From Rhynchopus sp. YZ270_cl-10 (Eukaryota): a stretch of 64,000 bases of DNA. The position numbers and the translations under genes were made by a program. Below, piece after piece: positions 26,577 to 55,142 of this stretch; within the stretch, counting starts at the first letter, position 1, and the number at the start of each line of letters is the position of its first letter. The stretch covers positions 868,001-932,000 of the forward strand of contig OZ037840.1 of the NCBI GenBank assembly GCA_964035575.1. Reading direction: 5' to 3'. The notes below the pieces were generated by a model that was not told where the DNA came from, searched no databases, and worked only from the letters and a program-made list of their open reading frames with translations.

Positions 26577-27552
26577 GGAATTGACCAACAACGAGAACGT
26601 GTCCATTTCGGCAAATTGACCCCATCACTGGCCGGACGGATTCCGGAAATGCAAATGCCGGCGTTTAAAAGATTCACCAACGAAAACAATTTTTTTTTCA
26701 ACACATGAATGCCCCCCTAACCGGCATGACAACTGGTAGAAACACGGGGAATCGGTTATGCAGCCACGCCAAAAAAAGTGCAATATTAAGAGAAATGTTA
26801 TCAAAGTCTTGTTGGCCGACCTTCAGCATTATTGGGCACTAAATTTAAGATAAGAGAGCAGGAGAAACATGCACTTACGTACACTTACGCACACGTACAC
26901 ACACTTACGCAGAACTGAGCAGAACTGACCAAAACTGAGCACAATCACGCCACAATTACACCACAATTACACCACAATTACAGCGGCCCAAAACGGTACA
27001 GCAAAATAATTGAAGTGTTTTGCAAAAAAAGCAAAGAGAAAAAAAAAATAAAGGGAGGATGGTGTGATTCAGGGGGTATGGACAACCCACAGGAGAACCA
27101 CGGAGAACTGTTTCGGGCTATATTAAGATTTGCGGAGCACCTTCGGGGGGGAACCACGGAGAATCCGATTGGGTGATCACACCAGAGGAAAGAGTCTGAA
27201 AGAAACCGGCATTGTTTTTTTGGCCTAAAATAAAACAGTGCAATACAGCAACAATGAATGTGATCTAATAAATTGTGACAAACACTCCTGAATTTATTTT
27301 TCTCTCCCTCGCACTCCGAATTGCAGTTGTATTTTGGTTTTCGGCGGTGAAATCGGTGTAGTTGTCTCTTTGCGGTTATTGCACTTCACCACTGTTCCTT
27401 TTTTTGTGGTTCACCAGTCTCAAGTAAACTTCTGTTGCAACTAGGCAACAAAATCGATTCGCTATTAACCTTTTGCCACTCCACATCCTGTTGCACAAGC
27501 CTCCCCACCACCCCACCTCTCTTCCCTTACAGATGCACAGTGGTTGCCAGAT

Positions 27553-29712: not shown

Positions 29713-30087
29713 TTTTGTTATTTGTCCTCTTTATTACACAGTGCAATATTGAGTGAAGCTCAAAGCATGCACATAAAATGTTTTATTGGTTTTATTTCAG
29801 ATAATATTGTCCCTCGTAACAAATCCTGTGGGCGAAATTTGAAAAATTCGATCCATGTTTCCAGCGATTTCAACGTAGTTTTGTGTGAGCCGGGAAAAAT
29901 TGTGACACTTTTGCTGGAAATATAGAATCCTTAAGGAATCCCGTGTCAACTGGGATTTGGAAGAATTTTTTTCGTGAAATTTTCGACCCGGAGTTGGGTC
30001 TTTGGCACCAAAAAATGCAAAAAAAGCAAAAATCGGGTGTTTTGACTATCTGGGGTTACACCAAATGCACTTCTGTGAACAAGCTTA

Positions 30088-31802
30088 GGGTAGTGTAACT
30101 TTTTCAGCCTGTTACCGTTACCGCCCGCCGGATTTTTTGAAAACCAAAAAAAAAAAGTTATGTAGAAAGTACCTAGGGAAAAAAGTTATGAAGAGGTTCT
30201 ATAGGAAAGAGGTGGGTGGGGCTGTACAGGGCCCATACCTAGAGCACCTCACGATCACTTGGTGAGTAAGCAAATTTTTCTCGAGAGAAAAGTCGTTTTC
30301 CTTCTCGAGTGTTTTCTTGTACACTGTACACTGTACACTGTACACTGTACACTGTACACTGTACACTGTACACTGTACACTGTACACTGTACACTGTACA
30401 CTGTACACTGTACACTGTACACTGTACACTGTACACTGTACACTGTACACTGTACACTGTACACTGTACACTGTACACTGTACACTGTACACTGTACACT
30501 GTACACTGTACACTGTACACTGTACACTGTACACTGTACACTGTGCACTGTACACTGTACACTGTACACTGTACACTGTACACTGTACACTGTACACTGT
30601 ACACTGTACACTGTACACTGTACACTGTACACTGTACACTGTACACTGTACACTGTACACTGTACACTGTACACTGTACACTGTACACTGTACACTGTAC
30701 ACTGTACACTGTACACTGTACACTGTACACTGTACACTGTACACTGTACACTGTACACTGTACACTGTACACTGTACACTGTACACTGTACACTGTACAC
30801 TGTACACTGTACACTGTACACTGTACACTGTACACTGTACACTGTACACTGTACACTGTACACTGTACACTGTACACTGTACACTGTACACTGTACACTG
30901 TACACTGTGCACTGTACACTGTACACTGTACACTGTACACTGTACACTGTACACTGTACACTGTACACTGTACACTGTACACTGTACACTGTACACTGTA
31001 CACTGTACACTGTACACTGTACACTGTACACTGTACACTGTACACTGTACACTGTACACTGTACACTGTACACTGTACACTGTACACTGTACACTGTACA
31101 CTGTACACTGTACACTGTACACTGTACACTGTACACTGTACACTGTACACTGTACACTGTACACTGTACACTGTACACTGTACACTGTACACTGTACACT
31201 GTACACTGTACACTGTACACTGTACACTGTACACTGTACACTGTACACTGTACACTGTACACTGTACACTGTACACTGTACACTGTACACTGTACACTGT
31301 ACACTGTACACTGTACACTGTACACTGTACACTGTACACTGTACACTGTACACTGTACACTGTACACTGTACACTGTACACTGTACACTGTACACTGTAC
31401 ACTGTACACTGTACACTGTACACTGTACACTGTACACTGTACACTGTACACTGTACACTGTACACTGTACACTGTACACACTGTAGTACCTATAACTTTC
31501 TGGTACCCAGTCATTCTGGGAACCAGACACCCGGCGTCCAGGAACCTGGGTACCCAGGCAACATGATAATGAGAAGACACAAAATGCTACACGCAACAGA
31601 AAACAAGCTACACGTCACGAAAATAAGGATTTGACTGTGAAGAAAACTCTGGAAAAATGTAAGAAAATATCTTCATAACTTTTTTCCCCCTGGTAAAACT
31701 TTTTTTTCTTTTTTTTTTTTTTCATAACTTTTTTTCTCCGCTGCCTGCCGGGTTTTTCGAACACCAAAATAACGGTAACAGACCGAAAAAGTTACACTAC
31801 CC
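30088..31802. mobile_element. PIF/Harbinger-like MITE carrying a satellite
   Basis: TTA|GGGTAGTGTAACTTTTTC...GAAAAAGTTACACTACCC|TTA (3-bp TWA TSD, GGG ends). Confidence 0.8.
30318..31479. repeat. (TGTACAC)n satellite, ~166 units
   Basis: Directly visible; two TGTGCAC variants. Confidence 0.98.
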
Positions 31803-32493
31803 TTACAAAAATAGTGATTAGACAACTCGATTTTTGTCGCCTCATGAACTGAAGGAGGAAATAGAGAGAAATCATTTTGAACACACTTTGCGGTTCTGGG
31901 GAGGAACCGCGCTGCAAAGACACTCCTCACCAAACAGGTGGAGGTGTGTGCGTTTCACCACAACCTCTCCCATGGGTTTTCGAGAAAAATTAAAAATGTC
32001 AAATCATAAATACGGTCAAAAGTCGCCCAACAACATCACATCAACAATTACATCAGGACAAGGGTTCCACATCACAGGATTTGTCACTCGGGACAATATT
32101 ATCTGAAATCAAAATAAAATTTTCTGGAAATTTAGTACTATTTTCCCCTTCGGCACCCCAAAGCTGCTTCGGGATACCTCAGGGGAAAATAGTTACTATA
32201 TTTACAGAAAAAATATACTATTCTTTATTACACAGCGCACACTATTTGAGTGAAGCTCAAAGCATGCACATAAAATGAATGGAATGTGATCCAAGACATA
32301 CTACAGTATCTCCCCTCCCCTCTTTTCCGAACACTCCTTGCTCTTTCTGCCTACACATGGCACACTTCCTCGTCTACCTGCTGCGTTGCACAGCACATTC
32401 GCTATTAACCTTTTGCCACTGCACATCCTGTTGCAGCAAGCCTCCCCACCACCCCACCTCTCTTCCCTTACAGATGCACAGTGGTTGCCAGAT

Positions 32494-34629
32494 ATGTACC
32501 AGAGTATGCTGCGCTGTTTGGAGCCAGCACTGACGCTTGATGGGCAGACGTCTGCGAACGAGCGGAAGAAGCGGACGCTGTTTTTTCTGTTCCACGTCAT
32601 GACGGGGCTTTTTACAGCACTGGACTTCCTGAGTAGCTTGGGAAAACGAAACGGCATTTCGCTCGCGGCGACAATCAATTTATTGCTTATCTCGGCAACT
32701 TGTGTGTGCAGTGTGCTGCTCAAGATCAAGATCCACGACTGCACTGCTGCCTTCGCCATTTTTGGCGTCTCCCTCACCATCTTCTGCTGGGACCTCAACT
32801 CTCGGGCACGTTTCGACAATGCGTGGCCATTGCTTGTCCTGTGTGTGGATATGCTGTTGGTCATGGAGCTGCCTGCACGCTACAGTGTTGGTCTTGTGGT
32901 GTTCACGTGTGTGTGGCTTCTGGTGTTGGCAGCGGAACAAAGCCTCAGGTTTGGCCTGTTTGACCTTCCCGGGCTTCTACCACAGGAGGGTGTCAATGGA
33001 CGCAAGGAGCTCGTCAGAAGAATAACTGACTGCACATCGCCGCCGTGCCCCGTGCCATTCCCACCTCCTATATTGTTCACTTCTCTTGCAGTGTTCGTCA
33101 TAGACTTCCTCGCAACACGAAGCTTCGCCTCGCAGGTGTTGAAGGAGCAGGCAGCAATGGAGAGAACGATCAGTGTGGTGCAGGAGATTGCGAGTCTGCT
33201 CGCCAAGTACGATGTGGAGGGTGTGGCGGAGATGCTGAAGGTGCAAAGGGACGAGCTCCCAGAGGAGATGCACGCAACACTGCAGAGGATGGAGGAGAAC
33301 CTGCGGAAGTACCGTCCCTACCTCCCCGCAGCGCTGTTTGAGGAGGAGGGTGGTGCGCCAAGCGCGTCTGTGCCGCCACCTGTGCTTGAGAACGATGTGG
33401 GAACGATTGTCTTTACAGACATCCGTTCGTCGACGTCGATCTGGGAGTGTGCGCCAGAAGGGATGTGTGCTGCGTTGAAGATCCACAACGCTGTGATGCG
33501 TGAGGTGATGCAGGTGTTTGGTGGGTACGAAGTGAAGACAATCGGCGACGCCTTCATGGTTGCCTTCGCATCAACAGCTGACGGTGTGAACTTTGGCCTG
33601 AAGGTGCAGGAGCGTCTTCGTGAAGCAAACTGGCCTGCGTCGCTGCTTGAGGAGGCACCGATCTGTGCTGAACAGGGACCACTTTGGGGTGGACTGACTG
33701 TGCGCATTGGTGTCAACAGTGGTCCTGTGACTGTGGAGCAGAACACACTGACGGGACGGACAGACTACTTCGGACACACTGTGAACGTTGCGTCACGTCT
33801 TGAGAGCACATGCACGCCAGGAGCTGTAGCAATACTTTCTGACCTGTGGACTTCTGTCTGTGGGTTGTGCACTGCTGTTGCTAGTGAGGCTGAAGCACTT
33901 GACTTGAAGGGTGTGTCACAGCCAATGCGTGTGCGTTGCTTGTGGCCTGCTTCACTTGCGGGGCGAGCACACAACCCTCTTGCTGATGTGGACATGTCTG
34001 CACACTCACTGACTGCGTCTATCAGGGGATACGGGATGTCAATTAACAATACCCTGATGTCAACACTACCGAGCTCAGCTGGGTCAGAGTGCGAATGTCC
34101 CATCCTTCGCGCACAGCTGGGTCGACAGGTGACCGGCACTGTCGGTGTTGTGGACATTGAAGTGGGTGACGAATCTGCCCTGAAAGCACTGCACACAATG
34201 AACGCAGGACTTGCAACACTCACGATTACACTGGACCAGAGCGGTGGGAGCCTGGTGACACTGCTTGGGAGCTGTGTGTGCGTTGGGTGGAACGTGACCC
34301 GTTCGGCACCTGCACACATGGAGAACGCAGTGCGGTTTGCACAACGGATGATGGCGAAGACTGCGTACTTCAAGGGTGCTGGTGTTGTGAGTGGTCCTGT
34401 GCAGCACGGGGACATTGGCAGCCACAAACAACGCTTTGTGACAGTGTTGGGGCACATTGTGCGACGGAGCTGGACGCTGTGTGAAGAAGCTGTGCGTGAG
34501 GGGGGCACATGCCTTTACGAACCCGACAGCACAACACTGCCGTCTGCACTTGAAGACACTCTTGTGCAACACAAGAGTGGTGGCTACAGAGTGGTTCAGG
34601 AGAGCAGGGACAGAGTGGAGTGCATTTGA
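32494..34629 (+). CDS. Multi-TM class III adenylate cyclase, copy 2
   Basis: Intact ORF with about 6 hydrophobic segments, catalytic domain, and degenerate second cyclase-like domain. Confidence 0.92.
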   Translation: MYQSMLRCLEPALTLDGQTSANERKKRTLFFLFHVMTGLFTALDFLSSLGKRNGISLAATINLLLISATCVCSVLLKIKIHDCTAAFAIFGVSLTIFCWDLNSRARFDNAWPLLVLCVDMLLVMELPARYSVGLVVFTCVWLLVLAAEQSLRFGLFDLPGLLPQEGVNGRKELVRRITDCTSPPCPVPFPPPILFTSLAVFVIDFLATRSFASQVLKEQAAMERTISVVQEIASLLAKYDVEGVAEMLKVQRDELPEEMHATLQRMEENLRKYRPYLPAALFEEEGGAPSASVPPPVLENDVGTIVFTDIRSSTSIWECAPEGMCAALKIHNAVMREVMQVFGGYEVKTIGDAFMVAFASTADGVNFGLKVQERLREANWPASLLEEAPICAEQGPLWGGLTVRIGVNSGPVTVEQNTLTGRTDYFGHTVNVASRLESTCTPGAVAILSDLWTSVCGLCTAVASEAEALDLKGVSQPMRVRCLWPASLAGRAHNPLADVDMSAHSLTASIRGYGMSINNTLMSTLPSSAGSECECPILRAQLGRQVTGTVGVVDIEVGDESALKALHTMNAGLATLTITLDQSGGSLVTLLGSCVCVGWNVTRSAPAHMENAVRFAQRMMAKTAYFKGAGVVSGPVQHGDIGSHKQRFVTVLGHIVRRSWTLCEEAVREGGTCLYEPDSTTLPSALEDTLVQHKSGGYRVVQESRDRVECI

Positions 34630-34944
34630 TGACAGTTGCAATATATCAGTTTGGTTTTGACTATGTTATTTGTCCTCTTTATTACACAGTGCACTATTGA
34701 GTGAAGCTCAAAGCATGCACATAAAATGAATGAAATGTGATCCAAGACATACTACAGTATCTCCCCTCCCCTCTTTTCCGAACACTCCTTGCTCTTTCTG
34801 CCTACACATGGCACACTTCCTCGTCTACCTGCTGCGTTGCACAGCACATTCGCTATTATCCTTTTGCCACTGCACATCCTGTTGCAGCAAGCCTCCCCAC
34901 CACCCCACCTCTCTTCCCTTACAGATGCACAGTGGTTGCCAGAT

Positions 34945-37074
34945 ATGTACCAGAGTATGCTGCGCTGTTTGGAGCCAGCACTGACGCTTGATGGGCAGAC
35001 GTCTGCGAACGAGCGGAAGAAGCGGACGCTGTTTTTTCTGTTCCACGTTATGGCATGGATTTTTACAGCACTGGACTTTCTAAGTAGCTTGGGCGAACGT
35101 TACGCTGCTTCGTCCGCAGCAACAGTCAATGTGTTGGTGATCTCAGCAGCATGTGTGTGCAGTGTGCTGCTCAAGATCAAGATCCACGACTGCACTGCTG
35201 CCTTCGCCATTTTTGGCGTCTCCCTCACCATCTTCTGCTGGGACCTCAACTCTCGGGCACGTCTCGAAAATGCGTGGCCATTGCTTGTCCTGTGTGTGGA
35301 TATGCTGTTGGTCATGGAGCTGCCTGCACGCTACAGTGTTGGTCTTGTGGTGTTCACGTGTGTGTGGCTTCTGGTGTTGGCAGCGGAACAAAGCCTTAGG
35401 TTTGGCCTGTTTGACCTTCCCGGGCTTCTACCACAGGAGGGTGTCAGTGGACGCAAACAGCGGATCAGAAGAATAACTGACTGCACATCGCCGCCGTGCC
35501 CCGTGCCATTCCCACCCCCTATATTTTTCACGTCTCTTGCAGTCTTCGTTATAGACTTCCTCGCAACACGAAGCTTCGCCTCGCAGGTGCTGAAGGAGCA
35601 GGCAGCAATGGAGAGAACGATCAGTGTGGTGCAGGAGATTGCGAGTCTGCTTGCCAAGTACGATGTGGAAGGTGTGGCGGAGATGCTGAAGGTGCAAAGG
35701 GACGAGCTCCCAGAGGAGATGCACGCAACACTGCAGAGGATGGAGGAGAACCTGCGGAAGTACCGTCCCTACCTCCCTGCAGCGCTGTTTGAGGAGGAGG
35801 GTGGTGCGCCAAGCGCGTCTGTGCCGCCACCTGTGCTTGAGAACGACGTGGGAACGATTGTCTTTACAGACATCCGTTCGTCGACGTCGATCTGGGAGTG
35901 TGCGCCAGAAGGGATGTGTGCTGCGCTGAAGATCCACAACGCTGTGCTGCGTGAGGTGATGCAGGTGTTTGGTGGGTACGAAGTGAAGACAATCGGCGAC
36001 GCCTTCATGGTTGCCTTCGCATCAACAGCTGACGGTGTGAACTTTGGCCTGAAGGTGCAGGAGCGTCTTCGTGAAGCAAACTGGCCTGCGTCGCTGCTTG
36101 AGGAGGCACCGATCTGTGCTGAACAGGGCTCACTTTGGGGTGGACTGACTGTGCGCATTGGTGTGAACAGTGGTCCTGTGACTGTGGAGCAGAACACACT
36201 GACGGGACGGACAGACTACTTTGGACACACGGTGAACGTTGCGTCACGTCTTGAGAGCACATGCACGCCAGGAGCTGTTGCTGTGCCCTCGGACCTGTGG
36301 ACTTCTGTCTGTGGGTTGTGCACTGCTGTTGCTGGTGAGGCTGAAGCACTTGACTTGAAGGGTGTGTCACAGCCAATGCGCGTGCGTTGCTTGTGGCCTG
36401 CTTCACTTGCGGGGCGAGCACACAACCCTCTTGCTGATGTGGACATGTCTGCACACTCAGTGGCCATGTCTGTCGGGGGATGCGGGATGTCAGTGAAGTC
36501 ACTGGGGTCATCACCACAGGGCTCATTGGGGTCAGAAAATTCTGCCATATTTCGACCACAACTGGGTCGTCAGGTGATCGGCACTGTCGGTGTTGTGGAC
36601 ATTGAAGTGGGTGACGAATCTGCCCTGAAAGCACTGCACACAATGAACGCAGGACTTGCAACACTCACGATTACCCTGGACCAGAGCGGTGGGAGCCTGG
36701 TGACGCTGCTTGGGAGCTGTGTGTGCGTTGGGTGGAACGTGACCCGTTCGGCACCTGCACACATGGAGAACGCAGTGCGGTTTGCACAACGGATGATGGC
36801 GAAGACTGCGTACTTCAAGGGTGCTGGTGTTGTGAGTGGTCCTGTGCAGCACGGGGACATTGGCAGCCACAAACAACGCTTTGTGACAGTGTTGGGGCAC
36901 ATTGTGCGACGGAGCTGGACGCTGTGTGAAGAAGCTGTGCGTGAGGGGGGCACATGCCTTTACGAACCCGACAGCACAACACTGCCGTCTGCACTTGAAG
37001 ACACTCTTGTGCAACACAAGAGTGGTGGCTACAGAGTGGTTCAGGAGAGCAGGGACAGAGTGGAGTGCATTTGA
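34945..37074 (+). CDS. Multi-TM class III adenylate cyclase, copy 3
   Basis: Same motifs as copy 2. Confidence 0.92.
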   Translation: MYQSMLRCLEPALTLDGQTSANERKKRTLFFLFHVMAWIFTALDFLSSLGERYAASSAATVNVLVISAACVCSVLLKIKIHDCTAAFAIFGVSLTIFCWDLNSRARLENAWPLLVLCVDMLLVMELPARYSVGLVVFTCVWLLVLAAEQSLRFGLFDLPGLLPQEGVSGRKQRIRRITDCTSPPCPVPFPPPIFFTSLAVFVIDFLATRSFASQVLKEQAAMERTISVVQEIASLLAKYDVEGVAEMLKVQRDELPEEMHATLQRMEENLRKYRPYLPAALFEEEGGAPSASVPPPVLENDVGTIVFTDIRSSTSIWECAPEGMCAALKIHNAVLREVMQVFGGYEVKTIGDAFMVAFASTADGVNFGLKVQERLREANWPASLLEEAPICAEQGSLWGGLTVRIGVNSGPVTVEQNTLTGRTDYFGHTVNVASRLESTCTPGAVAVPSDLWTSVCGLCTAVAGEAEALDLKGVSQPMRVRCLWPASLAGRAHNPLADVDMSAHSVAMSVGGCGMSVKSLGSSPQGSLGSENSAIFRPQLGRQVIGTVGVVDIEVGDESALKALHTMNAGLATLTITLDQSGGSLVTLLGSCVCVGWNVTRSAPAHMENAVRFAQRMMAKTAYFKGAGVVSGPVQHGDIGSHKQRFVTVLGHIVRRSWTLCEEAVREGGTCLYEPDSTTLPSALEDTLVQHKSGGYRVVQESRDRVECI

Positions 37075-37378
37075 TGGACAGTTGCAATATGAGTTTGGTT
37101 TTGATTTTGTTATTTGTCCTCTTTATTACACAGTGCAATATTGAGTGAAGCTCAAAGCATGCACATAAAATGAATGAAATGAGATACCGCACGTTCATTT
37201 TTTTGCCTCTTTTCCGAACAGTCTTTGCTCTTTGTGCCTACACATGGCACACTTCCTCGCCTACCTGCTGTTGCACAGCACATTCGCTATTAACCTTTTG
37301 CCACTGCACATCCTGTTGCAGCAAGCCTCCCCACCACCCCACCTCTCTTCCCTTACAGATGCACAGTGGTTGCCAGAT

Positions 37379-39514
37379 ATGTACCAGAGTATGCTGCGCT
37401 GTTTGGAGCCAGCACTGACGCTTGATGGGCAGACGTCTGCGAACGAGCGGAAGAAGCGGACGCTGTTTTTGCAGATGTGCAGTGTTGGGGTGTTTTTGGT
37501 TCTCTGGTTCTTGGCGGCGTCCGCTCCGGTACTGCATGCGCGTATACTGACCTCGGTGGCCTGTATCATCAGTGTCTTCATCTTCACTATATCCATCTCG
37601 CTGGTACTTCTGAAGTACAGACTTAGTGACGTCTTCGTCGTTGCCATGGTGTACGGGGCGAGCCTATGCATACTGTGCTGGGACCTCAACTCGAGGACAA
37701 AGAGCAGCTCGTCCTGGCCGTTGCTTGTCATCTGTGTGGACTGCCTTCTTATCATGGAGCTGCCTGCACGCTACAGTGTTGGTCTCGTGGTTTTCACGTG
37801 CCTGTGGCTGCTGCTTACGGCGGTGGAGGAAAGCCTCAGGTTTGGCCTGTTTGAACTTCCGGGGCTTACACCACAAGAGGGCGCTTACAGTCGCAGAGAG
37901 TTTGCTCGAGAAATGGTTGAGTGTGCAACGCTGCCGTGCCCCGTGCGATTTCCCCCATCTCCCATGTTCATGTCCTTGTCAGTGTTCATCATAGACTTCC
38001 TCGCAACACGAAGCTTCGCCTCGCAGGTGCTGAAGGAGCAGGCAGCAATGGAGAGGACGATCAGTGTGGTGCAGGAGATTGCGAGTCTGCTTGCCAAGTA
38101 CGATGTGGAGGGTGTGGCGGAGATGCTGAAGGTGCAAAGGGACGAGCTCCCAGAGGAGATGCACGCAACACTGCGGAGGATGGAGGAGAACCTGCGGAAG
38201 TACCGTCCCTACCTCCCCGCAGCGCTGTTTGAGGAGGAGGGTGGTGCGCCAAGCGCGTCTGTGCCGCCACCTGTGCTTGAGAACGACGTGGGAACGATTG
38301 TCTTTACAGACATCCGTTCGTCGACATCGATCTGGGAGTGTGCGCCAGAAGGGATGCGTGCTGGGCTGAAGATCCACAACGCTGTGCTGCGTGAGGTGAT
38401 GCAGGTGTTTGGTGGGTACGAAGTGAAGACAATCGGCGACGCCTTCATGGTTGCCTTCGCATCAACAGCTGACGGTGTGAACTTTGGCCTGCAGGTGCAG
38501 GAGTATCTTCGTGAAGCAAACTGGCCTGCGTCGCTGCTTGAGGAGGCACCGATCTGTGCTGAACAGGGACCACTTTGGGGTGGACTGACTGTGCGCATTG
38601 GTGTCAACAGTGGTCCTGTGACTGTGGAGCAGAACACACTGACGGGACGGACAGACTACTTTGGACACACGGTGAACATTGCTGCACGTCTTGAGAGCAC
38701 ATGCACGCCAGGAGCTGTTGCTGTGCCTTGTGACCTGTGGACTTCTGTCTGTGGGTTGTGCACTGCTGTTGCTGGTGAGGCTGAAGCACTTGACTTGAAG
38801 GGTGTGTCACAGCCAATGCGTGTGCGTTGCTTGTGGCCTGCTTCACTTGCGGGGCGAGCACACAACCCTCTTGCTGATGTGGACATGTCTGCACACTCAG
38901 TGGCCATGTCTGTCGGGGGATGCGGGATGTCAGTGAAGTCACTGGGGTCATCACCACAGGGCTCATTGGGGTCAGAAAATTCTGCCATATTTCGACCACA
39001 ACTGGGTCGTCAGGTGACCGGCACTGTCGGTGTTGTGGACATTGAAGTGGGTGACGAATCTGCCCTGAAAGCACTGCACACAATGAACGCAGGACTTGCA
39101 ACACTCACGATTACCCTGGACCAGAGCGGTGGGAGCCTGGTGACACTGCTTGGGAGCTGTGTGTGCGTTGGGTGGAACGTGACCCGTTCGGCACCTGCAC
39201 ACATGGAGAACGCAGTGCGGTTTGCACAACGGATGATGGCGAAGACTGCGTACTTCAAGGGTGCTGGTGTTGTGAGTGGTCCTGTGCAGCACGGGGACAT
39301 TGGCAGCCACAAACAACGCTTTGTGACAGTGTTGGGGCACATTGTGCGACGGAGCTGGACGCTGTGTGAAGAAGCTGTGCGTGAGGGGGGCACATGCCTT
39401 TACGAACCCGACAGCACAACACTGCCGTCTGCACTTGAAGACACTCTTGTGCAACACAAGGGTGGTGGCTACAGAGTGGTTCAGGAGAGCAGGGACAGAG
39501 TGGAGTGCATTTGA
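37379..39514 (+). CDS. Multi-TM class III adenylate cyclase, copy 4 (divergent TM region)
   Basis: Same catalytic motifs; N-terminal TM segments differ strongly. Confidence 0.92.
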   Translation: MYQSMLRCLEPALTLDGQTSANERKKRTLFLQMCSVGVFLVLWFLAASAPVLHARILTSVACIISVFIFTISISLVLLKYRLSDVFVVAMVYGASLCILCWDLNSRTKSSSSWPLLVICVDCLLIMELPARYSVGLVVFTCLWLLLTAVEESLRFGLFELPGLTPQEGAYSRREFAREMVECATLPCPVRFPPSPMFMSLSVFIIDFLATRSFASQVLKEQAAMERTISVVQEIASLLAKYDVEGVAEMLKVQRDELPEEMHATLRRMEENLRKYRPYLPAALFEEEGGAPSASVPPPVLENDVGTIVFTDIRSSTSIWECAPEGMRAGLKIHNAVLREVMQVFGGYEVKTIGDAFMVAFASTADGVNFGLQVQEYLREANWPASLLEEAPICAEQGPLWGGLTVRIGVNSGPVTVEQNTLTGRTDYFGHTVNIAARLESTCTPGAVAVPCDLWTSVCGLCTAVAGEAEALDLKGVSQPMRVRCLWPASLAGRAHNPLADVDMSAHSVAMSVGGCGMSVKSLGSSPQGSLGSENSAIFRPQLGRQVTGTVGVVDIEVGDESALKALHTMNAGLATLTITLDQSGGSLVTLLGSCVCVGWNVTRSAPAHMENAVRFAQRMMAKTAYFKGAGVVSGPVQHGDIGSHKQRFVTVLGHIVRRSWTLCEEAVREGGTCLYEPDSTTLPSALEDTLVQHKGGGYRVVQESRDRVECI

Positions 39515-39954
39515 TGACAGTTGCAATATATCAGTTTGGTTTTGATTATGTTATTATGAATAATTGCACATTGTTGTATGGGCGAGACACGTACACTGAG
39601 GTGAACGACAGCACTGAACGTAATGTTCTCGCCTCTCGATATTTAACACTTGTTTGACAGGAATCTCTGTCTTGTGTAACACAGGCGCTGTGCTCCTCAC
39701 TTCTGTGTGACACAGACGCATTGTCTTGTATGGTGCACATTGATGATACACTTTTTGAAAAAAAATTACTACTCCTTTAGTTGCGGTCGAACCGGTGTAC
39801 AGGTTTTTACAGTAAGCACACGGCTGGTGTATTTTTTCAATTCAACTTCTTTAACTTTTCTTCTGGTTGTTCGCCGCAGGCTTTTGTTGGTACCTTTCAA
39901 ACCCGCGGTGTTACGTCATCTCTTCCATCTTCCCCCCTCCACCCCCCCCCCCTA

Positions 39955-46876: not shown

Positions 46877-48562
46877 GTTGAGTGAAGGCTGAGGAGACCC
46901 TTAGCCCAGTTCATTAGCCATTAGGAAGACCTTTTTTTTGTGCAGAGATGCAAAACAAAAGAAAAGGAAAAAAAATATGGAAATGTGACCCCCCCCCAAA
47001 ATATCAGACTCAAAAAAAAAAAAAAACTGCATAAAAAAAAACTCCCCCCATTTAAATCCCTGAATATTCCTATCTCAACCCCTAAAATTATTTAGCATTC
47101 CATATAGGGTTTTTTGAAGTGCCTGCATTCATCCGGTGTCCGGGGGAGAGGTGTTTGTACTTTCAAAAAAGAAAAAGTTATTTGTTTTTCTCGGGAGAAA
47201 AGTCGTTTTCAGTCATGAGTGTTTTCTATGCACGCACAGAAAGCAGGAGTGACGGAAAACTGCTTTTCTCGAGGGGAAAAACAGAGTTTTGTTACTTTTT
47301 TTTTCCAGAGTTTGAGGCACCACGCTTTTGTGTAAGGTGACTAAGCACGAGAGACAAAAAATGATCCAAAAAATACAACAAAAAAGATTGTGGTGTCCCG
47401 CGACCAGCCCACAATAGCCCCCCCCTGGGCCCACCTGTGCCCACCTGAGCCCAATTCCACCCGATTTCGCCCGGATTTCACGGGGCTGGGGACACCCCAA
47501 AAGATTGATGAATAACCTATGTTCAAAACATTAAGCAATCTAATCAGACTAAGCACGAGAGGCTTAGGATCATCTTATAAAGCTTTCTATGTTTTGGATG
47601 TTCTCCTTCACGCTCCTCGGGCATCACCATCCGATTCGGACAGCTTTCCACTGTACACTACCATGGGGATCTTCATGGTGTCAAGGCTGATGCAAGGTAC
47701 ACTGTACACTGTACCCCAAAAAAAAATCGACCGAATAACTAGAAAACAAAGAAGTCTGGGTCTTAACAGAAAACAGCGTACCCGGAAAATAAGGACTTTG
47801 TCGTGGAGAAACTCTGGAAAAAGGTAACATTTGGTTTTTTTTTTTCTTTTGAGAAAATGAGACGGATTGTGTGTGTGTGTGTCCCAGAGGCCCTGCCGCT
47901 TTTCGTTCCTTATTTTCTTTCCTTTTTTTATTTTATTTTTTTTGGGAACATTTTTTGTTGGTCCCCATTCCTATGCTCTCAATTTATTGAATGCATACGT
48001 TGAAATACTTTTTTTTTTTTGACAAATTGTTGGAGTAGTGTAGTTGCCTCGGTTTGTGTTGTCACAGTTGTGCAAACTTTCCAAAAAAGTTCACTCACTT
48101 TTTCTTCAAAGAAAAAAAAAATGTTCATTATTTTTTGGTGACTAAGCAGCAAGGCTTAGGGTCATCTTACCAGCTTTTTTTTTTCTTTTTTTTTTTTTTC
48201 TTCGCTTTCTTTCTCTCCCGTTCTTTCTCTCTTCCCCACGATCTATACCTTTCCCCACTTCCCACTCCACTCACAAAAAAAATGCCCTCATATTATTTGA
48301 TGTAGCTAAGCACAGGTGTGCTGACGTTCATCTTACAAGCTTTTTTTTTTTGATCACAGCATGGCTCAGGACTTAGGTAGCGTACCTATTACACCCAACC
48401 CTTCATAAGTTAAGGCAAGACGTCTTCTTTCAATTTTTGTTTGAATACCGTAAAAATATTTATTCTGGGCCGGAACAAAACTGGAACACCCCCAAAAATC
48501 GTCGATTGTTCCAGTTTTGTTCCGCACCAGCATTGTTTTGGGGGGGGGGGGGGGGGGGGGGG

Positions 48563-50139
48563 TAGGGGCCGCAGTCCCCTAAGGAAATTATGTAACAATA
48601 ATTATTTCGTCATTTTTTGGGCATCTAGTGGGCACCTCAGGGTGTGTCTGACACCCAAAATAGGTTTCCGGGGCAGTGTGACCCAGAATTTCATGGTTTG
48701 GCACCTCAGAAAGTGAAAAAAGTGTGAAAAAATAGGATTTTCAGCCCTTTTGGCCATTTGGGGCAAAATGGCCAATTTTGGCACATTTTTTGCTTTGTGG
48801 GGGTATTTGGGGCTATTTCACCCCCAAAACCACTCAGAACATGTTCTAGGCACCTATTTTCAACCACAATTACCCATACAGGGGGGTATTCCGCTCAAGA
48901 AATGGTTTTGTTGGGGTTATTTTCAGCAAATTTTCACTAAGTTTCACTAAGTTTTGCTAAGTTTCACTAAGTTTTACTAAGTTTCACTAAGTTTTGGTCA
49001 AAAAAAATGCAAAAAAAATGCAAAAAACACGAAAAATTGCACAAAAAATGGGAGGAACCGAACAAATATGTATGGTATGGCAAAAATGTGTCCTTTTTTT
49101 TGGGTGACTGATTACCAGAAACACAAAAAAAATGGAAAATAAAGCACAAATCGGCCATTTGGGCCATTTTGGGACAAATGACCATTTTTGACCAAATTTT
49201 CAAAAAAATTGTAAAATTTCGACATCATGACAGCTGCTTGGGCACAAAACTACCCCAGGGATGTCCCGTGAGTCTATTCCGACCTGTTTTGGACACTTTA
49301 GGTACTTTTTTTGGCCGCTTTTTGGTGTTTTGAGGTCAAAATGACCCCCTGTCTACCCCCTGTCCAGGGGTCATATTCGACTCAATATTTCAAACCAAGA
49401 TCGGTTCGAGGGGCCCAAAAGGGTGCAGCTCGTCGAAATCAGGCCCACAGGACCCCTAGGAGTACGATTTCCACAGGAGAGTGACCCCAAGAGGCCTCTG
49501 GCGGCCCTAATTTGGCATTTTTTTAGCCCAAAACCGCCCCTACCCCCCTCTCTGGGGGGGAGGGCAATTTCTCACTCATTTTCCCCATTTCTAGTGCTTC
49601 TGAGTCCTCCAAAGGGTAAAAAAACGGTTCCGTTGGGTCCGCAGACCATTTTTTGGGGGGGTACATACCAAAATTTGCACCATACCCTACTTTATGTGAT
49701 GGCCAGGGGAAAAATCCTGGCCTTGGACAGGGGGTAGACAGGGGGTGGACAGGGGGGTCATTTTGACCAAATTTTGGCCAAATTCACCAAAGAAAAGGCG
49801 TAAAAATGTGAAAAACAGGCGAGAATGGACTCCAAGCACGTTTTTGGGGCAAAATAGGTCTCAAATGACTCTCTGAAACATCGAATTTGGTGTTTTTTTT
49901 ATGTTTTTTCATGAAAAATCGGGGTTTTGGCCAAAATGGCCAAAACCCCCAAAAAGCCAGTTTTTTGCTATTTTTTCCCATTTTTTCACATTCTAGAGTC
50001 GAATTTTCGCCCAATTTTGCCTCACAGGGTGTTTCTGACCTATTCTGGGGTGGTTCTCTGCAGGTTGTGGCCACTATACGCCAAAAAGTGGCAAAATGAA
50101 TTATTGTTACATAATTTCCTTAGGGGACTGCGGCCCCTA
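48563..50139. mobile_element. TIR element C (TAGGGGCCGCAGTCCCCTAAGGAAATTATGTAACAATAATT ends) in a G-run
   Basis: Perfect ~41-bp TIR; internal IR pair 49334/49768 and TTCACTAAGT tandem repeats. Confidence 0.85.
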
Positions 50140-50785
50140 GGCATAGTGTGCAGACGAACATTTTTGGTTCGTCGACGAACAAAATGTTCGTCGGTTTTGT
50201 TCGTCGATGTTCGTCGACGAACATCGACGAACATCGACGAACAGGTCCCTGCCACAAGGGCAACCCACGACGAACAACGACGAACATCGACGAACAACGA
50301 CGAACATCGACGAACAATTTTTTTTTTCCCCCCCACGACGAACATCGACGAACATTTTGTTCGTCTGCACACACGGTGCGGTAGTCAGCAAAATGACAAC
50401 CTAAATGACAACCTCAATGACATGTCATAATTATGACAACCCTATAGGTTGTCAGTGACAACCTAGGGGTTGTCAAATGACAACCTGAGGTTGTCAAATG
50501 ACAACCTATAGGTTGTCATTTGACAACCTTATGCATGTGAAATGCCTTGCAACAGCCATTTTTATTGGAAATGTGGGAGGTTGGGGGGTTGGGAGGTTGG
50601 TGGTTACCTGTTTGATTGTTGATTGTTGAATGTCCATGCACTGTAAAAATTTATTTAAAAAAAAAGGAGGAGATGGGGGGGTGATTTCTGTTTTTGTTGA
50701 TTTCATGATGATTTGGGTCCCTCACCCCCTTTGTAAAAATCCCGCCCATACACATATGCAGGGGTCAAGTGACTGACGTGCCTGA

Positions 50786-51718
50786 CTAGTGCCATTGAAC
50801 ACTCTCTTCGGAGTCCTCCTTGTTTGCCTCTGTGTCACTGGCCTCAGCAAGAGTCTCCTCAGGATCCTCAGGAGCCTCCTCAGGAACTTCGTCCTCCCCA
50901 AACACGGACATCCATGATGCCCCGTCCATTTTCACAGAGAGTGCGTTGGGGGCCCCCACGGGTATGTCCACACGAGTAATTCCCACCTGCACCATCACGG
51001 AAGTCTCCCTCGTCGAATCAAGGGACAGAGTGCTGGGGACATCATACGTACCGTCGACCACCCCGATGCTGGCCCCGATGGCAAGGCGCTCCCGCTTCAA
51101 CGCAAAGCTCAGCTTGTGACCCTGCAGCGTCGGGTCGGTGCAAAACACGGTGCAACCGTTTTCAATAAAAATTCGGTGCACTTTTCCACCCGGTGTCATC
51201 TTTTCCCCCATCACCGTGATGATAGGCCATACGGAAGCGCGGGGGCCTCTTTTGATGACCCCCTTGGCCGCCGCTGTCCCTGTTCCCTCGTTGACAATGG
51301 ACGTGTACAAGCACGCCATGTCCATGTCCCCCAGCGACGCCCCTTCCCGAACTACAAGCGCCAGACGCTTGTACGCCTCCGTCTTCTTTGCGGCGTCCGA
51401 TATCCCAGGCAACTTCCGCAGCACGAGTCCGCCAAACACAGTCTCCTTCACTGCCCCTCCGTTCCCTGAGATGCGGAGGCTGTACACACCTTTGGCAGCA
51501 TCAGCCTCTGCCCTGTTCTTCGCCTGTGTGATGGTGAATTTTTTGCCAAGTTCAGCTGCCACTGAGCCATCATTGGACTTGAAGTCCACCTTGAAACATT
51601 TCGAAATCAAGGCCCTCAGTGCAGGGTGACTTAAGGGGGTTGCACCGGCGGGGTTCTTCGCTTTGTACACATAAACAGTACAAAAGTCGTTTGCAATCGT
51701 CGTCTGCTTGCTTGTCAT
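50786..51718 (-). CDS. Transposon B ORF2, unknown function, ~310 aa, acidic C-terminal tail
   Basis: Open from MTSKQTT; ends EDEVPEEAPEDPEETLAEASDTEANKEDSEESVQWH*; its 3' end lies inside the TIR. Confidence 0.75.
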   Translation of the reverse strand: MTSKQTTIANDFCTVYVYKAKNPAGATPLSHPALRALISKCFKVDFKSNDGSVAAELGKKFTITQAKNRAEADAAKGVYSLRISGNGGAVKETVFGGLVLRKLPGISDAAKKTEAYKRLALVVREGASLGDMDMACLYTSIVNEGTGTAAAKGVIKRGPRASVWPIITVMGEKMTPGGKVHRIFIENGCTVFCTDPTLQGHKLSFALKRERLAIGASIGVVDGTYDVPSTLSLDSTRETSVMVQVGITRVDIPVGAPNALSVKMDGASWMSVFGEDEVPEEAPEDPEETLAEASDTEANKEDSEESVQWH

Positions 51719-51950
51719 GATATGATGTGGTGTGGTTTTTGGATCCTGGAAAGAGGGTGCGACTAATGGGATTGCGATGGAACAAAAACGAGTGCTATGG
51801 GGGGGGGGGGGGGGAGGGGGATTCATTCCTTTGTATAGATTCGCGGTAAACAAACAAACAAACAAACAAACAAATAGTGGAGCACATTCTAGAGTGGCAA
51901 CACTGAACAAACAAAAAATACAACAACAACAACAAAATGTAAACAGGCTA

Positions 51951-53807
51951 CTACTCTCCGTGCATGTTGTACATATGATTTTCTACGGCTCTCGGTGAGG
52001 AAAACACGTCCATACAAATGGGACAATGTTTCTTGGAAATATCCTCTGAGTGATTACACAAAAGATGCTGGCTAAAACCTCGCTTGGAAACATTGCGTTC
52101 GCATATGGGGCATTCCTGCCTGCATGCACAAGTAATTGAAGGGCGGTGATTTGCGTCGTAGTGACAATAGAGCTTGTGCGCGGTATTGAAATTTGTTTGT
52201 GTTCCAAGTCTGGTACAGATGGTGCATATATAGCCTTCGCCCGCATCCTCTGATTCTGATTCTGGTTCTGGTTCTGATTTGCTTTCCACAACAGGGGGTA
52301 CCCTCCATGATGGCTCCTTACACACGCAAATCTTCTTCACCCTACCCTCATCATCAGGGTTGGACAAGAATTTTTGCCCCCACCCTGTTCGGCGTTTTAT
52401 GTGTTTTCCCAGTCCAGCACGTTGCAGTCGCTGCACCAAGTTAGTGCACGCGGTTTTCCAAGTCTCATCTACTACTGTTATGCATTTGCACAGCCACAAC
52501 GTATCAAACTCCCAAAGTGCGGGAAGCGCGTCCGTTAGGGGGCCCAGTGGTGACATCGGCACTCCATGTTTAGTTTCAATTTCGAATGCCAAGAAATCGC
52601 GTTCCATTGTATTTGGGGAGGTGCATGCCGTCCAACGCTTCCTCTCCCCATTGGCATGCTCGAACAGTTCGTCCGACACGGTCACTCTGTGTGCGTCTTC
52701 TTCATCGAACCAATGTTCGACTGAGTGCATGTACGTGCTTTTCGTAACCCCTGGATTCGCCCATTCAAGCAAATACACGGTAAGGTGGTAACACAGTAAT
52801 GCGAACAAGTAATCTTTTGCGTATGGCCTCGACTCGTTCGGGTTTGGGTTTGGTGTGTGGAAGAACCTCACTGGTATGTCACTATACCGAAAGTAGTAAA
52901 GGCCCTGCATGGCCTGGCACAATATTAGTTTGCTCCCCTCATTTTCCTGAATGAGGCTGCGTAGGATAGTTCGTGACTGCGTGCCTGTCATATTGCCGTC
53001 CTGCTTACCAAGGATCTTTGTTTCTACGTCGCGGGCACCCGGTATGGTTTTAATGAGCAAACGCATCACCCCCTTGGTATCATGCAGCATCGGAGTTAGC
53101 GTGTAACAAGGTTGCTCGAATCGCCCGGCAATGCTGCACTCGAATCCACAGGCGTCCATTTCTTGAAGGCTCAAGCGGGTGCAGTTGTGCAGGGCAGACA
53201 ATCTGTCGTCCAGGTCGGTCGCACAGAACGCACTTCTATGTCCCCCGGGGCCGACACCTTTGAAGAGACTTGCCAACTCGGCATGATCTCCCCCGATTTT
53301 GTAGTACAGGAGGGAAAATTCGAAGCCTCCCTTCCTGAGGATGCGCTCTTGAACGTTTGAGAGCTGTGGCAGAAAGGTAAAAACCCACCAGTCGTGGAAG
53401 GTGGATTTTTTTTTGTCAGCGACCGTCAAAAAGTTTGTCGCTTCAAGCCCGTTCGTCGCAGCAACTGCAAGCCTCTTCCGTGCAAGTTGGGACCTGAAGG
53501 CACTGTACGGTGAATACCCATCCCACGTGATGATAATGGTCGGGAAGTCACCGCCCAGTCGCAGGGGGAAATACTTCAGAAGCAAAGAGAGCGATTTCTG
53601 CACATCACCTACCTGAGCCTCTGCCTTATCCTTAAACGGCTTCTCCCGCTGCTGCAACGTCTTGTACGCTAGGCCCATTGACGCCCCGGTCTCAGCTTTC
53701 ACCAATTTTCCGATCTCTTCGCAGTCACGCATCGACAGTCCTAGCTGGACTCTGTTGCGACCTATGATGTTCCCCACCACCCGCACTGTTTCATGATCAA
53801 TTCCCAT
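51951..53807 (-). CDS. RAG1-core/Transib-like DDE transposase with three C-terminal C2H2-type zinc fingers
   Basis: ITWD96G, GGD174, PMLHD, NMTGTQSR, TYMHSVEH and SDELFE383HAN occur in RAG1/Transib motif order; C-terminal CTIC..HYDANH, CPIC..HLLCNH, CPIC..HMYNMH. Confidence 0.8.
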   Translation of the reverse strand: MGIDHETVRVVGNIIGRNRVQLGLSMRDCEEIGKLVKAETGASMGLAYKTLQQREKPFKDKAEAQVGDVQKSLSLLLKYFPLRLGGDFPTIIITWDGYSPYSAFRSQLARKRLAVAATNGLEATNFLTVADKKKSTFHDWWVFTFLPQLSNVQERILRKGGFEFSLLYYKIGGDHAELASLFKGVGPGGHRSAFCATDLDDRLSALHNCTRLSLQEMDACGFECSIAGRFEQPCYTLTPMLHDTKGVMRLLIKTIPGARDVETKILGKQDGNMTGTQSRTILRSLIQENEGSKLILCQAMQGLYYFRYSDIPVRFFHTPNPNPNESRPYAKDYLFALLCYHLTVYLLEWANPGVTKSTYMHSVEHWFDEEDAHRVTVSDELFEHANGERKRWTACTSPNTMERDFLAFEIETKHGVPMSPLGPLTDALPALWEFDTLWLCKCITVVDETWKTACTNLVQRLQRAGLGKHIKRRTGWGQKFLSNPDDEGRVKKICVCKEPSWRVPPVVESKSEPEPESESEDAGEGYICTICTRLGTQTNFNTAHKLYCHYDANHRPSITCACRQECPICERNVSKRGFSQHLLCNHSEDISKKHCPICMDVFSSPRAVENHMYNMHGE

Positions 53808-55142
53808 TATTTTTTTTTTTTTTTTGTCCTGTCATGGATGTCCGTGTTTGGGGAGGATGAAGTTCCTGAGGAGGCTCTTGCTGAGGCCAGTGACACAGAG
53901 GCAACCAAAGAGGACTCCGAAGAGAGTGTTCAATGGCACTAGTCAGACACGTCAGTCACTTGACTCCTGCATATGTGTATGGGCGGGATTTTTACAAAGG
54001 GGGTGAGGGACCCAAATCATCATGAAATCAACAAAAACAGAAATCACCCCCCCATCTCCTCCTTTTTTTTTAAATAAATTTTTACAGTGCAGAGACAGCA
54101 AACAACAATCAACAATCAAACAGGTAACCACCAACCTCCCAACCCCCCAACCTCCCACATTTCCAATAAAAATGGCTGTTGCAAGGCATTTCACATGCAT
54201 AAGGTTGTCAAATGACAACCTATAGGTTGTCATTTGACAACCTCAGGTTGTCATTTGACAACCCCTAGGTTGTCACTGACAACCTAGGGGTTGTCTCGCA
54301 CCGAGGGTTGTCCTTTGACATGTCCTTGAGGTTGTCATTTTGATGACTACCGCACCGTGCACTATGCCTAGGGGGGGGGGGGTATCCGTGCCTTGTCAAA
54401 AAAAACGAGGAGTGCGACGATTTTTTTTTGCCCAAAGGTGCACTATGCACCTGGGTGGGGTGGGAATGGGGATAAAAATTCTACCCCAACAGAACTGTTC
54501 TGGGCCGGAACAAAACTGGGACACCCCCAAAAACCCCAAATGTTCCAGTTTTGTTCCGGTCCAGTATACTTCTGTCTCAGAATAGTTACAGCCCAGAATA
54601 AATATTTTTACGGTATACGAGAATCGTCATATAAAAATAAAACACTGTTTTTAGATACGCTTTGCCGAATTGTCTCCCCAGGCTCATTCACTCAGGGACA
54701 CTAATTCGAGCGATCAACGAAAAAAAAAACATGTCAAGAGATATACTCGCAACTTTTTTCTTCACCACCGCTTCACAACTTTTGTAAAAAAAAGTACGCA
54801 AAACCACCGACGAAGGAATATTTTTGTTATTCTACATGCTTTTGAAGGCGTTGCTGTCCTGTGTATGTATGTGAAGTTCGTGCACTGCCTATATTTTTTT
54901 TTTCTAAGGTGACTAAGCACGGGAGGCTTAGGGTCATCTTATAAACTTTTTTTTTCTTTTTTGGCACTGTGCGACACCCTCCCTAAGGCCCCCGCCCCAG
55001 ATCACCCCTCTCCCTCCCCAGGAGTCCCCCCCCATTCCTTTCTTCTGCATGGTAAAAAGGGACAGCTCTCTTTTCTTGCACCTACTACAACGGAGACAAC
55101 ACAGCAACGGGATTTCCAGGGAAGCCTTTTTTTTTTATTATT

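What the first reader, a model, noticed from the sequence alone, without database searches (positions are those of the whole stretch)
50372..54359. Intact two-gene RAG1/Transib-like transposon with RSS-heptamer-like ends in a probable euglenozoan protist
Seen: both ends start CACGGTG, one base from the RSS heptamer CACAGTG and typical of Transib-type ends. TIRs are long and highly similar, and both ORFs are uninterrupted. Knowledge (recalled, needs verification): the 618-aa ORF aligns without gaps to the RAG1 DDBD (RVQLGLS...LVKAETG...LQQREK vs RVNTFLS...TVKAITG...LRNAEK). It then shows RAG1 core motifs in order: D96 (D600-like), D174 (D708-like), LHD, MTGxxxR, YxH and E383 (E962-like). Inference: a recently active RAG-related transposon far outside animals, with an unusual layout (tandem genes, C-terminal zinc fingers, no NBD).
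Basis: partly seen in the sequence, partly recalled or inferred. Interest (0 to 1): 0.93.

Follow-up and report, generated by a model that had tools for sequence, protein, structure and literature searches.

The report
New diplonemid transposon with RAG1-like fold
A young, multi-copy 4-kb jumping gene in a probable diplonemid (a marine single-celled flagellate) encodes a cutting enzyme predicted to fold like the antibody-gene recombinase RAG1, but its 2-base insertion footprint, repeat-rich ends and unrelated second gene make it likely an undescribed branch of the wider CACTA/Chapaev/Transib transposon clan rather than a close RAG relative.

Summary
The element is real: 50372-54359, inverted repeats of 546/528 bp (497 of 565 aligned columns identical), two intact minus-strand ORFs (618 aa; 310 aa from the ATG at 51718), near-identical copies on many contigs. 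The 618-aa protein's predicted core matches RAG1 best among solved structures (Foldseek E 1.6e-6; VIA Z up to 14.1, then HzTransib 12.3, P element 11.7), from the DDBD position on, without NBD; D96/D174/E383 are conserved in a family of about 50 proteins whose named members are all diplonemid. But the target duplication here is 2 bp (CA; empty site seen; other junctions look TA-biased), not Transib's 5 bp; there is no nonamer; the ends carry CACTA-like subterminal repeats; the core has no sequence match to RAG1, Transib or CACTA profiles; and ORF2 is an orphan with no sign of RAG2. CAC ends and a RAG1-like core are shared by the whole CMCT clade (ESTA: TA duplication, RAG1 HHpred hit), and RAGL/Transib elements are already published from a protist, fungi and plants. 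Verdict: a new, recently active lineage of CMCT cut-and-paste transposons in Euglenozoa; 'RAG-like' describes the fold, not membership. Interest 0.45.

The parts
50372..54359 (-). Complete 3,988-bp DNA transposon
   Evidence: CACGGTG...CACCGTG ends, contigs branch at 50372 in 5 runs, 2-bp duplication
50370..50371 (+). Left copy of the 2-bp target duplication (CA)
   Evidence: Empty site TTCGTCTGCACACTATGCC in the host repeat's other arm and in runs X1, X2, X5
54360..54361 (+). Right copy of the 2-bp target duplication (CA)
50372..50917 (+). TIR at the 3' end of the genes (546 bp); holds 11 TGACAACC subterminal repeats in both orientations (50394-50528) and the last 44 codons of ORF2
53832..54359 (-). 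TIR at the 5' end of the genes (528 bp); holds 9 TGACAACC repeats (54203-54337) and an antisense copy of ORF2's 3' end with a 21-bp deletion
51951..53807 (-). Transposase, 618 aa: DDBD-like helices (5-65), RNase H core with D96, D174, E383, helical/zinc insertion (S192-x2-C195, H242, H361-x3-H365), C-terminal alpha/beta region, acidic linker, C2H2-type fingers (about 526-616)
50786..51718 (-). ORF2, 310 aa, orphan with acidic tail; likely accessory protein; pyrimidine tract and CAG 27 nt before its ATG (possible trans-splice acceptor)
50134..54373 (.). Host repeat (MITE-like, GACGAACA-rich, inverted arms CCTAGGCATAGTGTGCAGACGAAC) into whose right arm the transposon inserted; ends approximate

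Best explanation
This is an intact, multi-copy inverted-repeat element whose 618-aa protein is predicted to be a RAG1/Transib-fold DDE transposase, and it likely represents an undescribed diplonemid lineage of the CMCT clade (CACTA/EnSpm, Mirage, Chapaev, Transib, ESTA) that moves by cut-and-paste and leaves a 2-bp duplication. Shown: ends, TIRs, open frames, 2-bp CA duplication at this locus, copies on many contigs, conserved D/D/E. Inferred mechanism: the transposase dimerises through its DDBD-like helices, recognises the CAC termini in its RNase H core, and binds the TGACAACC subterminal repeats with its C-terminal C2H2 fingers in place of RAG1's NBD; it nicks at the terminus, releases the element (probably through hairpins on the flanking DNA, as RAG1 and HzTransib do; untested), and joins the two 3' ends into target strands 2 bp apart, mostly at TA. 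The two genes lie head to tail because euglenozoans transcribe polycistronically and trans-splice each ORF (inferred from AG acceptors after pyrimidine tracts). ORF2 is likely an accessory factor in the manner of CACTA ORF2/TnpA, not a RAG2.
For: Fold: all 45 Foldseek matches at E<=0.001 shown are RAG1 or HzTransib entries; VIA Z 14.1 RAG1 (373 aligned, rmsd 4.7), 12.3 HzTransib, 11.7 P element, 11.3 BbRAG1L, 7.5 ISCth4, 5.8 Hermes. CMCT motifs (PMC12730594: C(2)C, H(3-4)H, third His): C195 in 19 of 20 rows, full CxxC in 5 of 20, H242 20 of 20, H361 and H365 each 18 of 19 rows with residues, E383 19 of 19, D96 18 of 18, D174 20 of 20. 2-bp duplication lies in the CMC range of 2-4 bp (10.64898/2026.08.26.747230) and matches ESTA's TA habit; in X6 8 of 10 and in X5 3 of 4 listed junction contigs have A next to the terminus, and the consensus base before it was T in 4 of 4 runs. 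20 of the window's 22 TGACAACC copies lie within about 160 bp of the ends. Two ORFs between TIRs is the CACTA layout (PMC4158355). No sequence match of the core to any PDB sequence (profiles A2, A4) or to Pfam transposase families, so it is far from every described member. Youth: 15 of 19 cluster members listed are 98.4-100% identical; the exact ORF1 and ORF2 proteins are on 7 and 8 contigs.
Against: The ESM Atlas look-up put RAG1 clusters (score 0.94, 174 shared features) level with two unnamed clusters and showed no Transposase_21 (CACTA) cluster among 30 hits, which points to the Transib/RAG side of the clade. D-to-E spacing (209) is the Transib value. TSD length is labile inside Transib itself (TA in Oriex, 3 bp in Hayabusa; 10.64898/2026.08.26.747230), so 2 bp does not exclude Transib. 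The 2-bp figure rests on one locus; junction counts mix this family with related ends and 20 rows were hidden. No tree with reference CMCT sequences could be built.
Confidence: 0.65

Rival explanations
1. It is a very divergent true Transib (sister to or nested in Transib/RAG1L) that lost the NBD, gained C2H2 fingers and shifted to a 2-bp duplication.
For: RAG1 and HzTransib top every structure list; Atlas neighbours carry RAG1 families; D-E distance 209 fits 206-214 (PMC1131882); heptamer 2 bases from the Transib consensus CACAATG; Transib relatives with TA or 3-bp duplications exist (10.64898/2026.08.26.747230); SDE-x2-E-x2-N recalls the Transib last-E motif (recalled).
Against: No sequence-level match to RAG1/Transib in PDB or Pfam, even with family profiles, whereas Transib and RAG1L average 26% identity (PMC9435367); no nonamer, no NBD; H-x3-H spacing, where I recall H-x4-H for RAG1 and Transib; P-element transposase scores within about 1 Z of HzTransib, so the fold match is clade-wide.
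Confidence: 0.2
2. It is a member of an already named CMC lineage (ESTA, Chapaev/Chapaev3 or EnSpm) that was simply not yet recorded in Euglenozoa.
For: ESTA has TA duplications, CAC-N-R-Y-type ends and an HHpred hit to RAG1 (PMC12730594, section 3.1.6 and supplement rows read); DGY[NT]P after the first D recalls CACTA DGFNP, and PPLH-x2-K, GxQxR and SDExxE recall Chapaev3 motifs (all recalled, no call); subterminal repeats and a second ORF are CACTA traits.
Against: A profile search of 1.84 billion representatives found only 53 proteins, none matching a Pfam transposase family at E<=0.1 apart from one faint IS66 hit; no Chapa or RING finger at the N-terminus (structure starts at the DDBD position); ESTA elements listed are 7-14 kb fungal elements; Chapaev3 makes 3-bp TWA duplications (PMC3014272).
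Confidence: 0.12
3. It is a RAGL-like two-component element in which ORF2 is a functional partner that binds the transposase as RAG2 binds RAG1.
For: AanRAGL also has tandem genes in a protist (PMC9435367); ORF2 is kept intact with the transposase in many copies.
Against: ORF2 has no Pfam, Atlas or database relative outside its own element, no kelch repeats or PHD finger by Pfam; no ORF2 relative was found beside any of the other families; TIRs are symmetric.
Confidence: 0.03

Closest known systems
RAG1 core / RAG1L (mouse 4WWX, 6XNX; amphioxus BbRAG1L 6B40; AanRAGL)
   Same: Fold from the DDBD position to the end of the core (model 5-419 vs RAG1 459-1004), D/D/E order, zinc-site motifs, CAC termini; AanRAGL also has tandem genes.
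   Different: No NBD, RING or N-terminal region; C-terminal C2H2 fingers; 10-15% identity in structural alignments; no RAG2-like partner; symmetric 540-bp TIRs without nonamer; 2-bp instead of 5-bp duplication.
Transib (HzTransib 6PQN; Nozomi-related lineage)
   Same: Fold (Z 12.3), D-E distance 209, 3-4 kb size, heptamer-like end.
   Different: 2-bp duplication (canonical 5 bp, GC-rich), long TIRs with subterminal repeats, second ORF, H-x3-H, first cysteine of CxxC replaced by serine in this family, no sequence-level match.
ESTA (Kojima 2025, PMC12730594)
   Same: 2-bp, TA-type duplication; CAC ends; transposase recognised through RAG1 similarity; CMCT motifs.
   Different: ESTA are 7-14-kb rust-fungus elements, some with TET/JBP genes; no direct sequence comparison was possible; here at least one CA duplication.
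CACTA/EnSpm (incl. animal 2-bp TRC type) and Chapaev/Chapaev3
   Same: CAC ends, 2-4-bp duplications, transposase plus ORF2 (CACTA), subterminal repeats (recalled for CACTA).
   Different: No match to Pfam CACTA models; no Chapa/RING finger; ends CACGG rather than CACTA; Chapaev3 duplicates TWA.

Membership tests
CMCT clade (PMC12730594) | DDE triad in an RNase H fold with long D-E insertion | tested here: met
   D96 on strand 90-98, D174 after strand 168-173, E383 on helix 378-386; conserved; fold hits
CMCT clade (PMC12730594) | C(2)C and H(3-4)H motifs plus a third His between second D and E | tested here: met
   H361-x3-H365, H242 conserved; CxxC complete in 5 of 20 rows, SxxC in this element
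CMCT clade (PMC12730594) | 5'-CA..TG-3' ends and 2-5-bp duplication | tested here: met
   CACGGTG ends, CA duplication
Transib | 5-bp target duplication | tested here: not met
   2 bp at this locus; the trait is reported to be labile (10.64898/2026.08.26.747230)
Transib | Heptamer CACAATG-like plus A-rich nonamer after 23 bp | tested here: not met
   CACGGTG; 9-mers after 23 bp are TAAATGACA and TCAAGGACA
Transib | D-E distance 206-214 aa | tested here: met
   209 (PMC1131882)
Transib | Transposase groups with Transib in a tree or matches it by sequence | tested here: inconclusive
   No sequence match; structure match present; no reference sequences for a tree
RAGL / ProtoRAG | RAG2-like (kelch propeller, PHD) second gene | tested here: inconclusive
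   No Pfam or database match for ORF2; its model is unusable (pLDDT 36)
RAGL / ProtoRAG | NBD and N-terminal region in RAG1L | tested here: not met
   Protein begins at the position of RAG1 459-461
RAGL / ProtoRAG | Asymmetric bipartite TIRs and 5-bp duplication | tested here: not met
   First 31 bases differ at 1 position between ends; 2-bp duplication
ESTA | TA duplication | tested here: inconclusive
   CA here; other junctions look TA-biased
ESTA | Transposase falls in the ESTA branch of the CMCT tree | not testable with these tools
   ESTA proteins could not be obtained
CACTA/EnSpm | Transposase matches CACTA profiles (Transposase_21 etc.) | tested here: not met
   No such Pfam hit at E<=10 for the protein or 7 core rows, nor at E<=0.1 for 48 relatives
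CACTA/EnSpm | Two ORFs between TIRs; subterminal repeats | tested here: met
   PMC4158355 for the two ORFs; subterminal repeats as a CACTA trait is recalled
Chapaev/Chapaev3 | N-terminal Chapa zinc finger; 3-bp TWA duplication (Chapaev3) | tested here: not met
   No N-terminal extension; 2-bp duplication; PMC4411706, PMC3014272
RAG1/Transib mechanism | Nick-hairpin cleavage with hairpins on the flanking DNA | not testable with these tools
   Needs an in vitro assay

The most novel reading that the evidence does not exclude
A deep, euglenozoan-specific sister lineage of Transib/RAG1 (closer to RAG1 than CACTA is) that keeps the RAG1 DDBD and hairpin chemistry but reads its ends with C-terminal C2H2 fingers on subterminal repeats, integrates with a 2-bp stagger, and carries its own orphan partner protein: a living, active test case for which RAG1 features are ancient and for how target stagger is set.
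Probability: 0.25. Interest if true: 0.7.

Novelty: new variant of a known kind. Interest (0 to 1): 0.45.

Why it matters
DNA transposons are barely described in Euglenozoa: none in trypanosomatids (PMC12278014), Merlin in Bodo, Perkinsela and Euglena (PMC8101967), only TATE, MULE and Helitron named for Diplonema papillatum (PMC10161547). This adds a diversified, still young CMCT lineage that standard profiles miss entirely. An intron-free, intact, near-identical-copy element with a RAG1-like core but a 2-bp stagger is a convenient enzyme for asking how the RAG1/Transib fold sets target spacing and whether hairpin cleavage is general in the clade, and it might be turned into an insertion tool for diplonemids. 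It does not by itself move the origin of RAG: RAG-related elements outside animals are already in print.

Tried and rejected
No whole genome is held for the window, so other copies could not be read with both flanks. Pfam scans of ORF1, ORF2, core rows and 48 of the 53 relatives: only zinc fingers. Sequence searches of PDB with the protein and with profiles A2, A3, A4: zinc fingers or noise only ([best 60 of 199 shown], 83). Viral contigs: no relative; BFVD fold search: nothing at E<=0.001. Metagenome contigs: 2 loci, one a 1-kb fragment of a family member (L001), one a bacterial-looking chance match (L002). The 16-nt terminal motif in prokaryote genomes (about 290 matches, 278 expected) and viral contigs (11): chance, none extends into the TIR (best 12 of the next 24 bases). 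ORF2 single-sequence model pLDDT 36; its fold search is meaningless. No RNA holder listed among sequencing runs. One genome search with the RAG1 Pfam model to get reference sequences rang nowhere. Yuan and Wessler 2011 is not held. Rejected: chance or assembly artefact (the element is in runs of at least 4 studies and contigs branch at its end); RSS-like heptamer as evidence on its own (14 copies of the 7-mer in the window); a longer or zero duplication (the empty site gives exactly CA). P0088 among the 53 hits is a cadherin-like false positive. The family tree (22 rows, no outgroup) only shows several well-separated subgroups and cannot place the family.
Full report
Observation. The element runs from 50372 to 54359 (3,988 bp). 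Both ends read CACGGTG. The inverted repeats are 546 and 528 bp, 497 of 565 columns identical. They are not simple TIRs: 20 of the 22 TGACAACC octamers of the whole window sit within about 160 bp of the two ends, in both orientations, and the inner 130 bp of the repeat are the last 44 codons of ORF2, copied in antisense in front of ORF1 with a 21-bp deletion. ORF1 (51951-53807, minus strand, 618 aa) and ORF2 are uninterrupted. ORF2 most likely starts at 51718 (310 aa): that exact protein is on record on 8 contigs and a pyrimidine tract ending in CAG lies 27 nt upstream. The 7-mer alone means nothing (14 copies in the window), but the ends are real: assembled contigs of runs X1, X3 and X8 and X5 and X6 begin exactly at 50372.

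Target duplication. The element sits in the right arm of a GACGAACA-rich inverted repeat element. The other arm of that same host element reads TTCGTCTGCACACTATGCCTAGG, and contigs that run on behind 50372 have the consensus TATGCCTA... in X1 (5 contigs), X2 (2) and X5 (1). The filled site is TTCGTCTGCACA [element] CACTATGCCTAGG, so exactly CA is duplicated. For other junctions only one side and a consensus are visible: loose ends before 50370/50371/50372 number 3/5/2 in X6, and 3 before 50371 and 1 before 50372 in X5; X1 lists 3 and 6 and X2 2 and 5 for the first two places, with 20 rows hidden. So most listed junctions have A next to the terminus, and the consensus base before it was T in 4 of 4 runs, which suggests a TA preference. 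These counts mix this family with diverged elements that share only about 40 terminal bases, and the runs may show the same loci.

Age and copies. The transposase cluster has 19 members; the 15 listed are 98.4-100% identical. The window's exact protein (P0008) is on 7 contigs; some members are truncated or frameshifted. Contigs may include more than one assembly, so this is not a copy number. Nine runs of 5 studies hold the stretch or part of it, 7 of them half of its words or more; inner contigs have depth about 2,300 in X1 against 66-104 for unique-looking neighbours (the tool warns that depth is no copy number). This fits recent activity; present activity is not shown.

Host and family. A cysteine protease of the window matches trypanosomatid-type enzymes first (7AVM E 2e-81, cruzain 6e-74; next other group 5e-55), and the window has tandem adenylate cyclase genes. 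A core profile found 53 proteins among 1.84 billion representatives, one a false positive. Of 24 clusters looked up, 4 carry an organism label, and all 4 are diplonemids: Rhynchopus euleeides three times, Lacrimia lanifica once. The Rhynchopus and Lacrimia entries are transcriptome proteins, so relatives are expressed. P0117 (44% identical) and P0099 (32%) share contig lengths with members of this cluster, so the same assembly probably holds several families. The host is a euglenozoan, probably a diplonemid; 20 clusters are unlabelled, so the range is not settled.

What the transposase is. No Pfam model and no PDB sequence matches the core, alone or as a profile. The AlphaFold model (P0001, one residue off the window's protein; pLDDT 70, 7 sequences) has D96 on the first strand, D174 after a later strand and E383 on a helix. 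Foldseek gives RAG1 entries first (E 1.6e-6), HzTransib 5.8e-4, BbRAG1L 1e-3, P element 1.8e-2, Hermes 2e-2. VIA-align gives Z 14.1 for RAG1 (373 residues, rmsd 4.7), 12.3 HzTransib, 11.7 P element, 11.3 BbRAG1L; in the wide search 12.9, 11.6, 11.7, 11.2. Alignments start at model residues 5-11 against RAG1 459-461, so there is no NBD. The Atlas lists RAG1 clusters level with two unnamed ones (0.94). In 20 aligned relatives D174, H242 and D243 are invariant; D96 and E383 are present in every row that covers them; H361 and H365 in 18 of 19; C195 in 19 of 20; the first cysteine of CxxC is kept in 5 of 20 and is serine in the rest, this element included. H207 (18 of 20) or H190 (16 of 20) could supply the missing zinc ligand (inference). 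I could not inspect the active-site geometry or the residue pairing with RAG1.

Placing it. [quoted passage not shown] So a RAG1 hit plus CAC ends marks the clade, not Transib. Transib is defined by 5-bp duplications and a heptamer-23-nonamer end (PMC1131882, passages); neither is met, though the D-E distance is (209). A 2026 preprint (10.64898/2026.08.26.747230, passages) reports TA and 3-bp duplications inside Transib, which keeps a divergent Transib open. CACTA elements carry a transposase plus ORF2 (PMC4158355, passages); Chapaev has a Chapa finger (PMC4411706, passages) and Chapaev3 a TWA duplication (PMC3014272, passages). From memory only, the motifs here mix CACTA-like (DGYNP, HxxxH, FExxNG) and Chapaev/Transib-like ones (PPLH, GxQxR, SDE). 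I therefore file it as a separate CMCT lineage, without a tree to fix its branch.

ORF2. It has no relative outside its own element among 5.8 billion proteins of similar length, no Pfam match, no Atlas hit and no usable model. Its codon GC3 (0.65) is in the range of host genes (0.56-0.83). It is likely an accessory gene; nothing suggests RAG2. The tandem layout fits polycistronic transcription with trans-splicing, usual in diplonemids (PMC10161547, abstract and passages).

Mechanism. Shown: structure of the element, 2-bp duplication, many near-identical copies. Predicted: RAG1/Transib-type fold. Inferred: dimer, C2H2 fingers on the subterminal repeats replacing the NBD, excision probably by flank hairpins, strand transfer with a 2-bp stagger. 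A transcript through both TIRs would fold into about 450 bp of duplex that includes ORF2's end, a possible silencing trigger (inference).

Novelty. RAG-related elements outside animals are in print: AanRAGL in a pelagophyte with tandem genes, Transib in fungi, plants and bacterial assemblies (PMC9435367, whole text read; no hit for Diplonema, Euglen, Rhynchopus, Excavata, Discoba or Naegleria in its one held supplement; its species table and figures may not be in that file; PMC10629977, passages). Searches listed no report of a CACTA/Transib-type element in diplonemids or other Euglenozoa; PMC10161547, PMC12278014 and PMC8101967 (passages) name only TATE, MULE, Helitron and Merlin. Repbase Reports are not searchable here, and bioRxiv supplements are closed. 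This scan's own notes hold 154 RAG1-fold findings in at least 42 genomes (unchecked), so the fold alone is a common sight. Verdict: real, young, a new lineage of a known clade; interest 0.45.

Noticed in passing
window 50134-50371 and 54360-54373: High-copy MITE-like host element with GACGAACA repeats and inverted arms; contig depth 12,000-20,000 in X1/X2/X6. One related CACGGTG-ended element also appears joined to this repeat after another CA (joint 50232-50370), a hint of repeated targeting.
   Followed up: partly
runs X1, X2, X5, X6 laid on window 50335-50435: Single-copy contigs match only the first about 40 bases of the TIR with 2-5 differences and then diverge: further, probably non-autonomous or sister families with the same ends.
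   Followed up: no
window 27457-39555: Five tandem, 92-99% identical membrane adenylate/guanylate cyclase genes (about 2.4-kb period).
   Followed up: partly
window 13699-14682: Cruzain/rhodesain-like cathepsin L gene; cluster of 10 near-identical members.
   Followed up: partly
window 19061-21012 (minus strand): Frames with a C/H-rich stretch and an RNase H-like stretch (WSDAS...ELYA...VDN) that look like remains of a DIRS/TATE-type retroelement (by eye).
   Followed up: no
window 10421-11616: About 410-bp inverted repeat pair at 94% identity with an inner palindromic part: another foldback or MITE-like element.
   Followed up: no
window 25430-26716, 30205-31631, 11857-12670: Long simple-repeat tracts (TGTAC/ACTGT-type units) that give long open frames in many phases.
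   Followed up: no
window 54897-54962 (also 8393-8449, 47549-47595, 48137-48191): A short, about 55-bp repeat with very high contig depth in the runs.
   Followed up: no
proteins P0117, P0054/P0099, P0056, P0023: Other, 30-45% identical transposase families of the same lineage on megabase ENA contigs, some multi-copy.
   Followed up: partly
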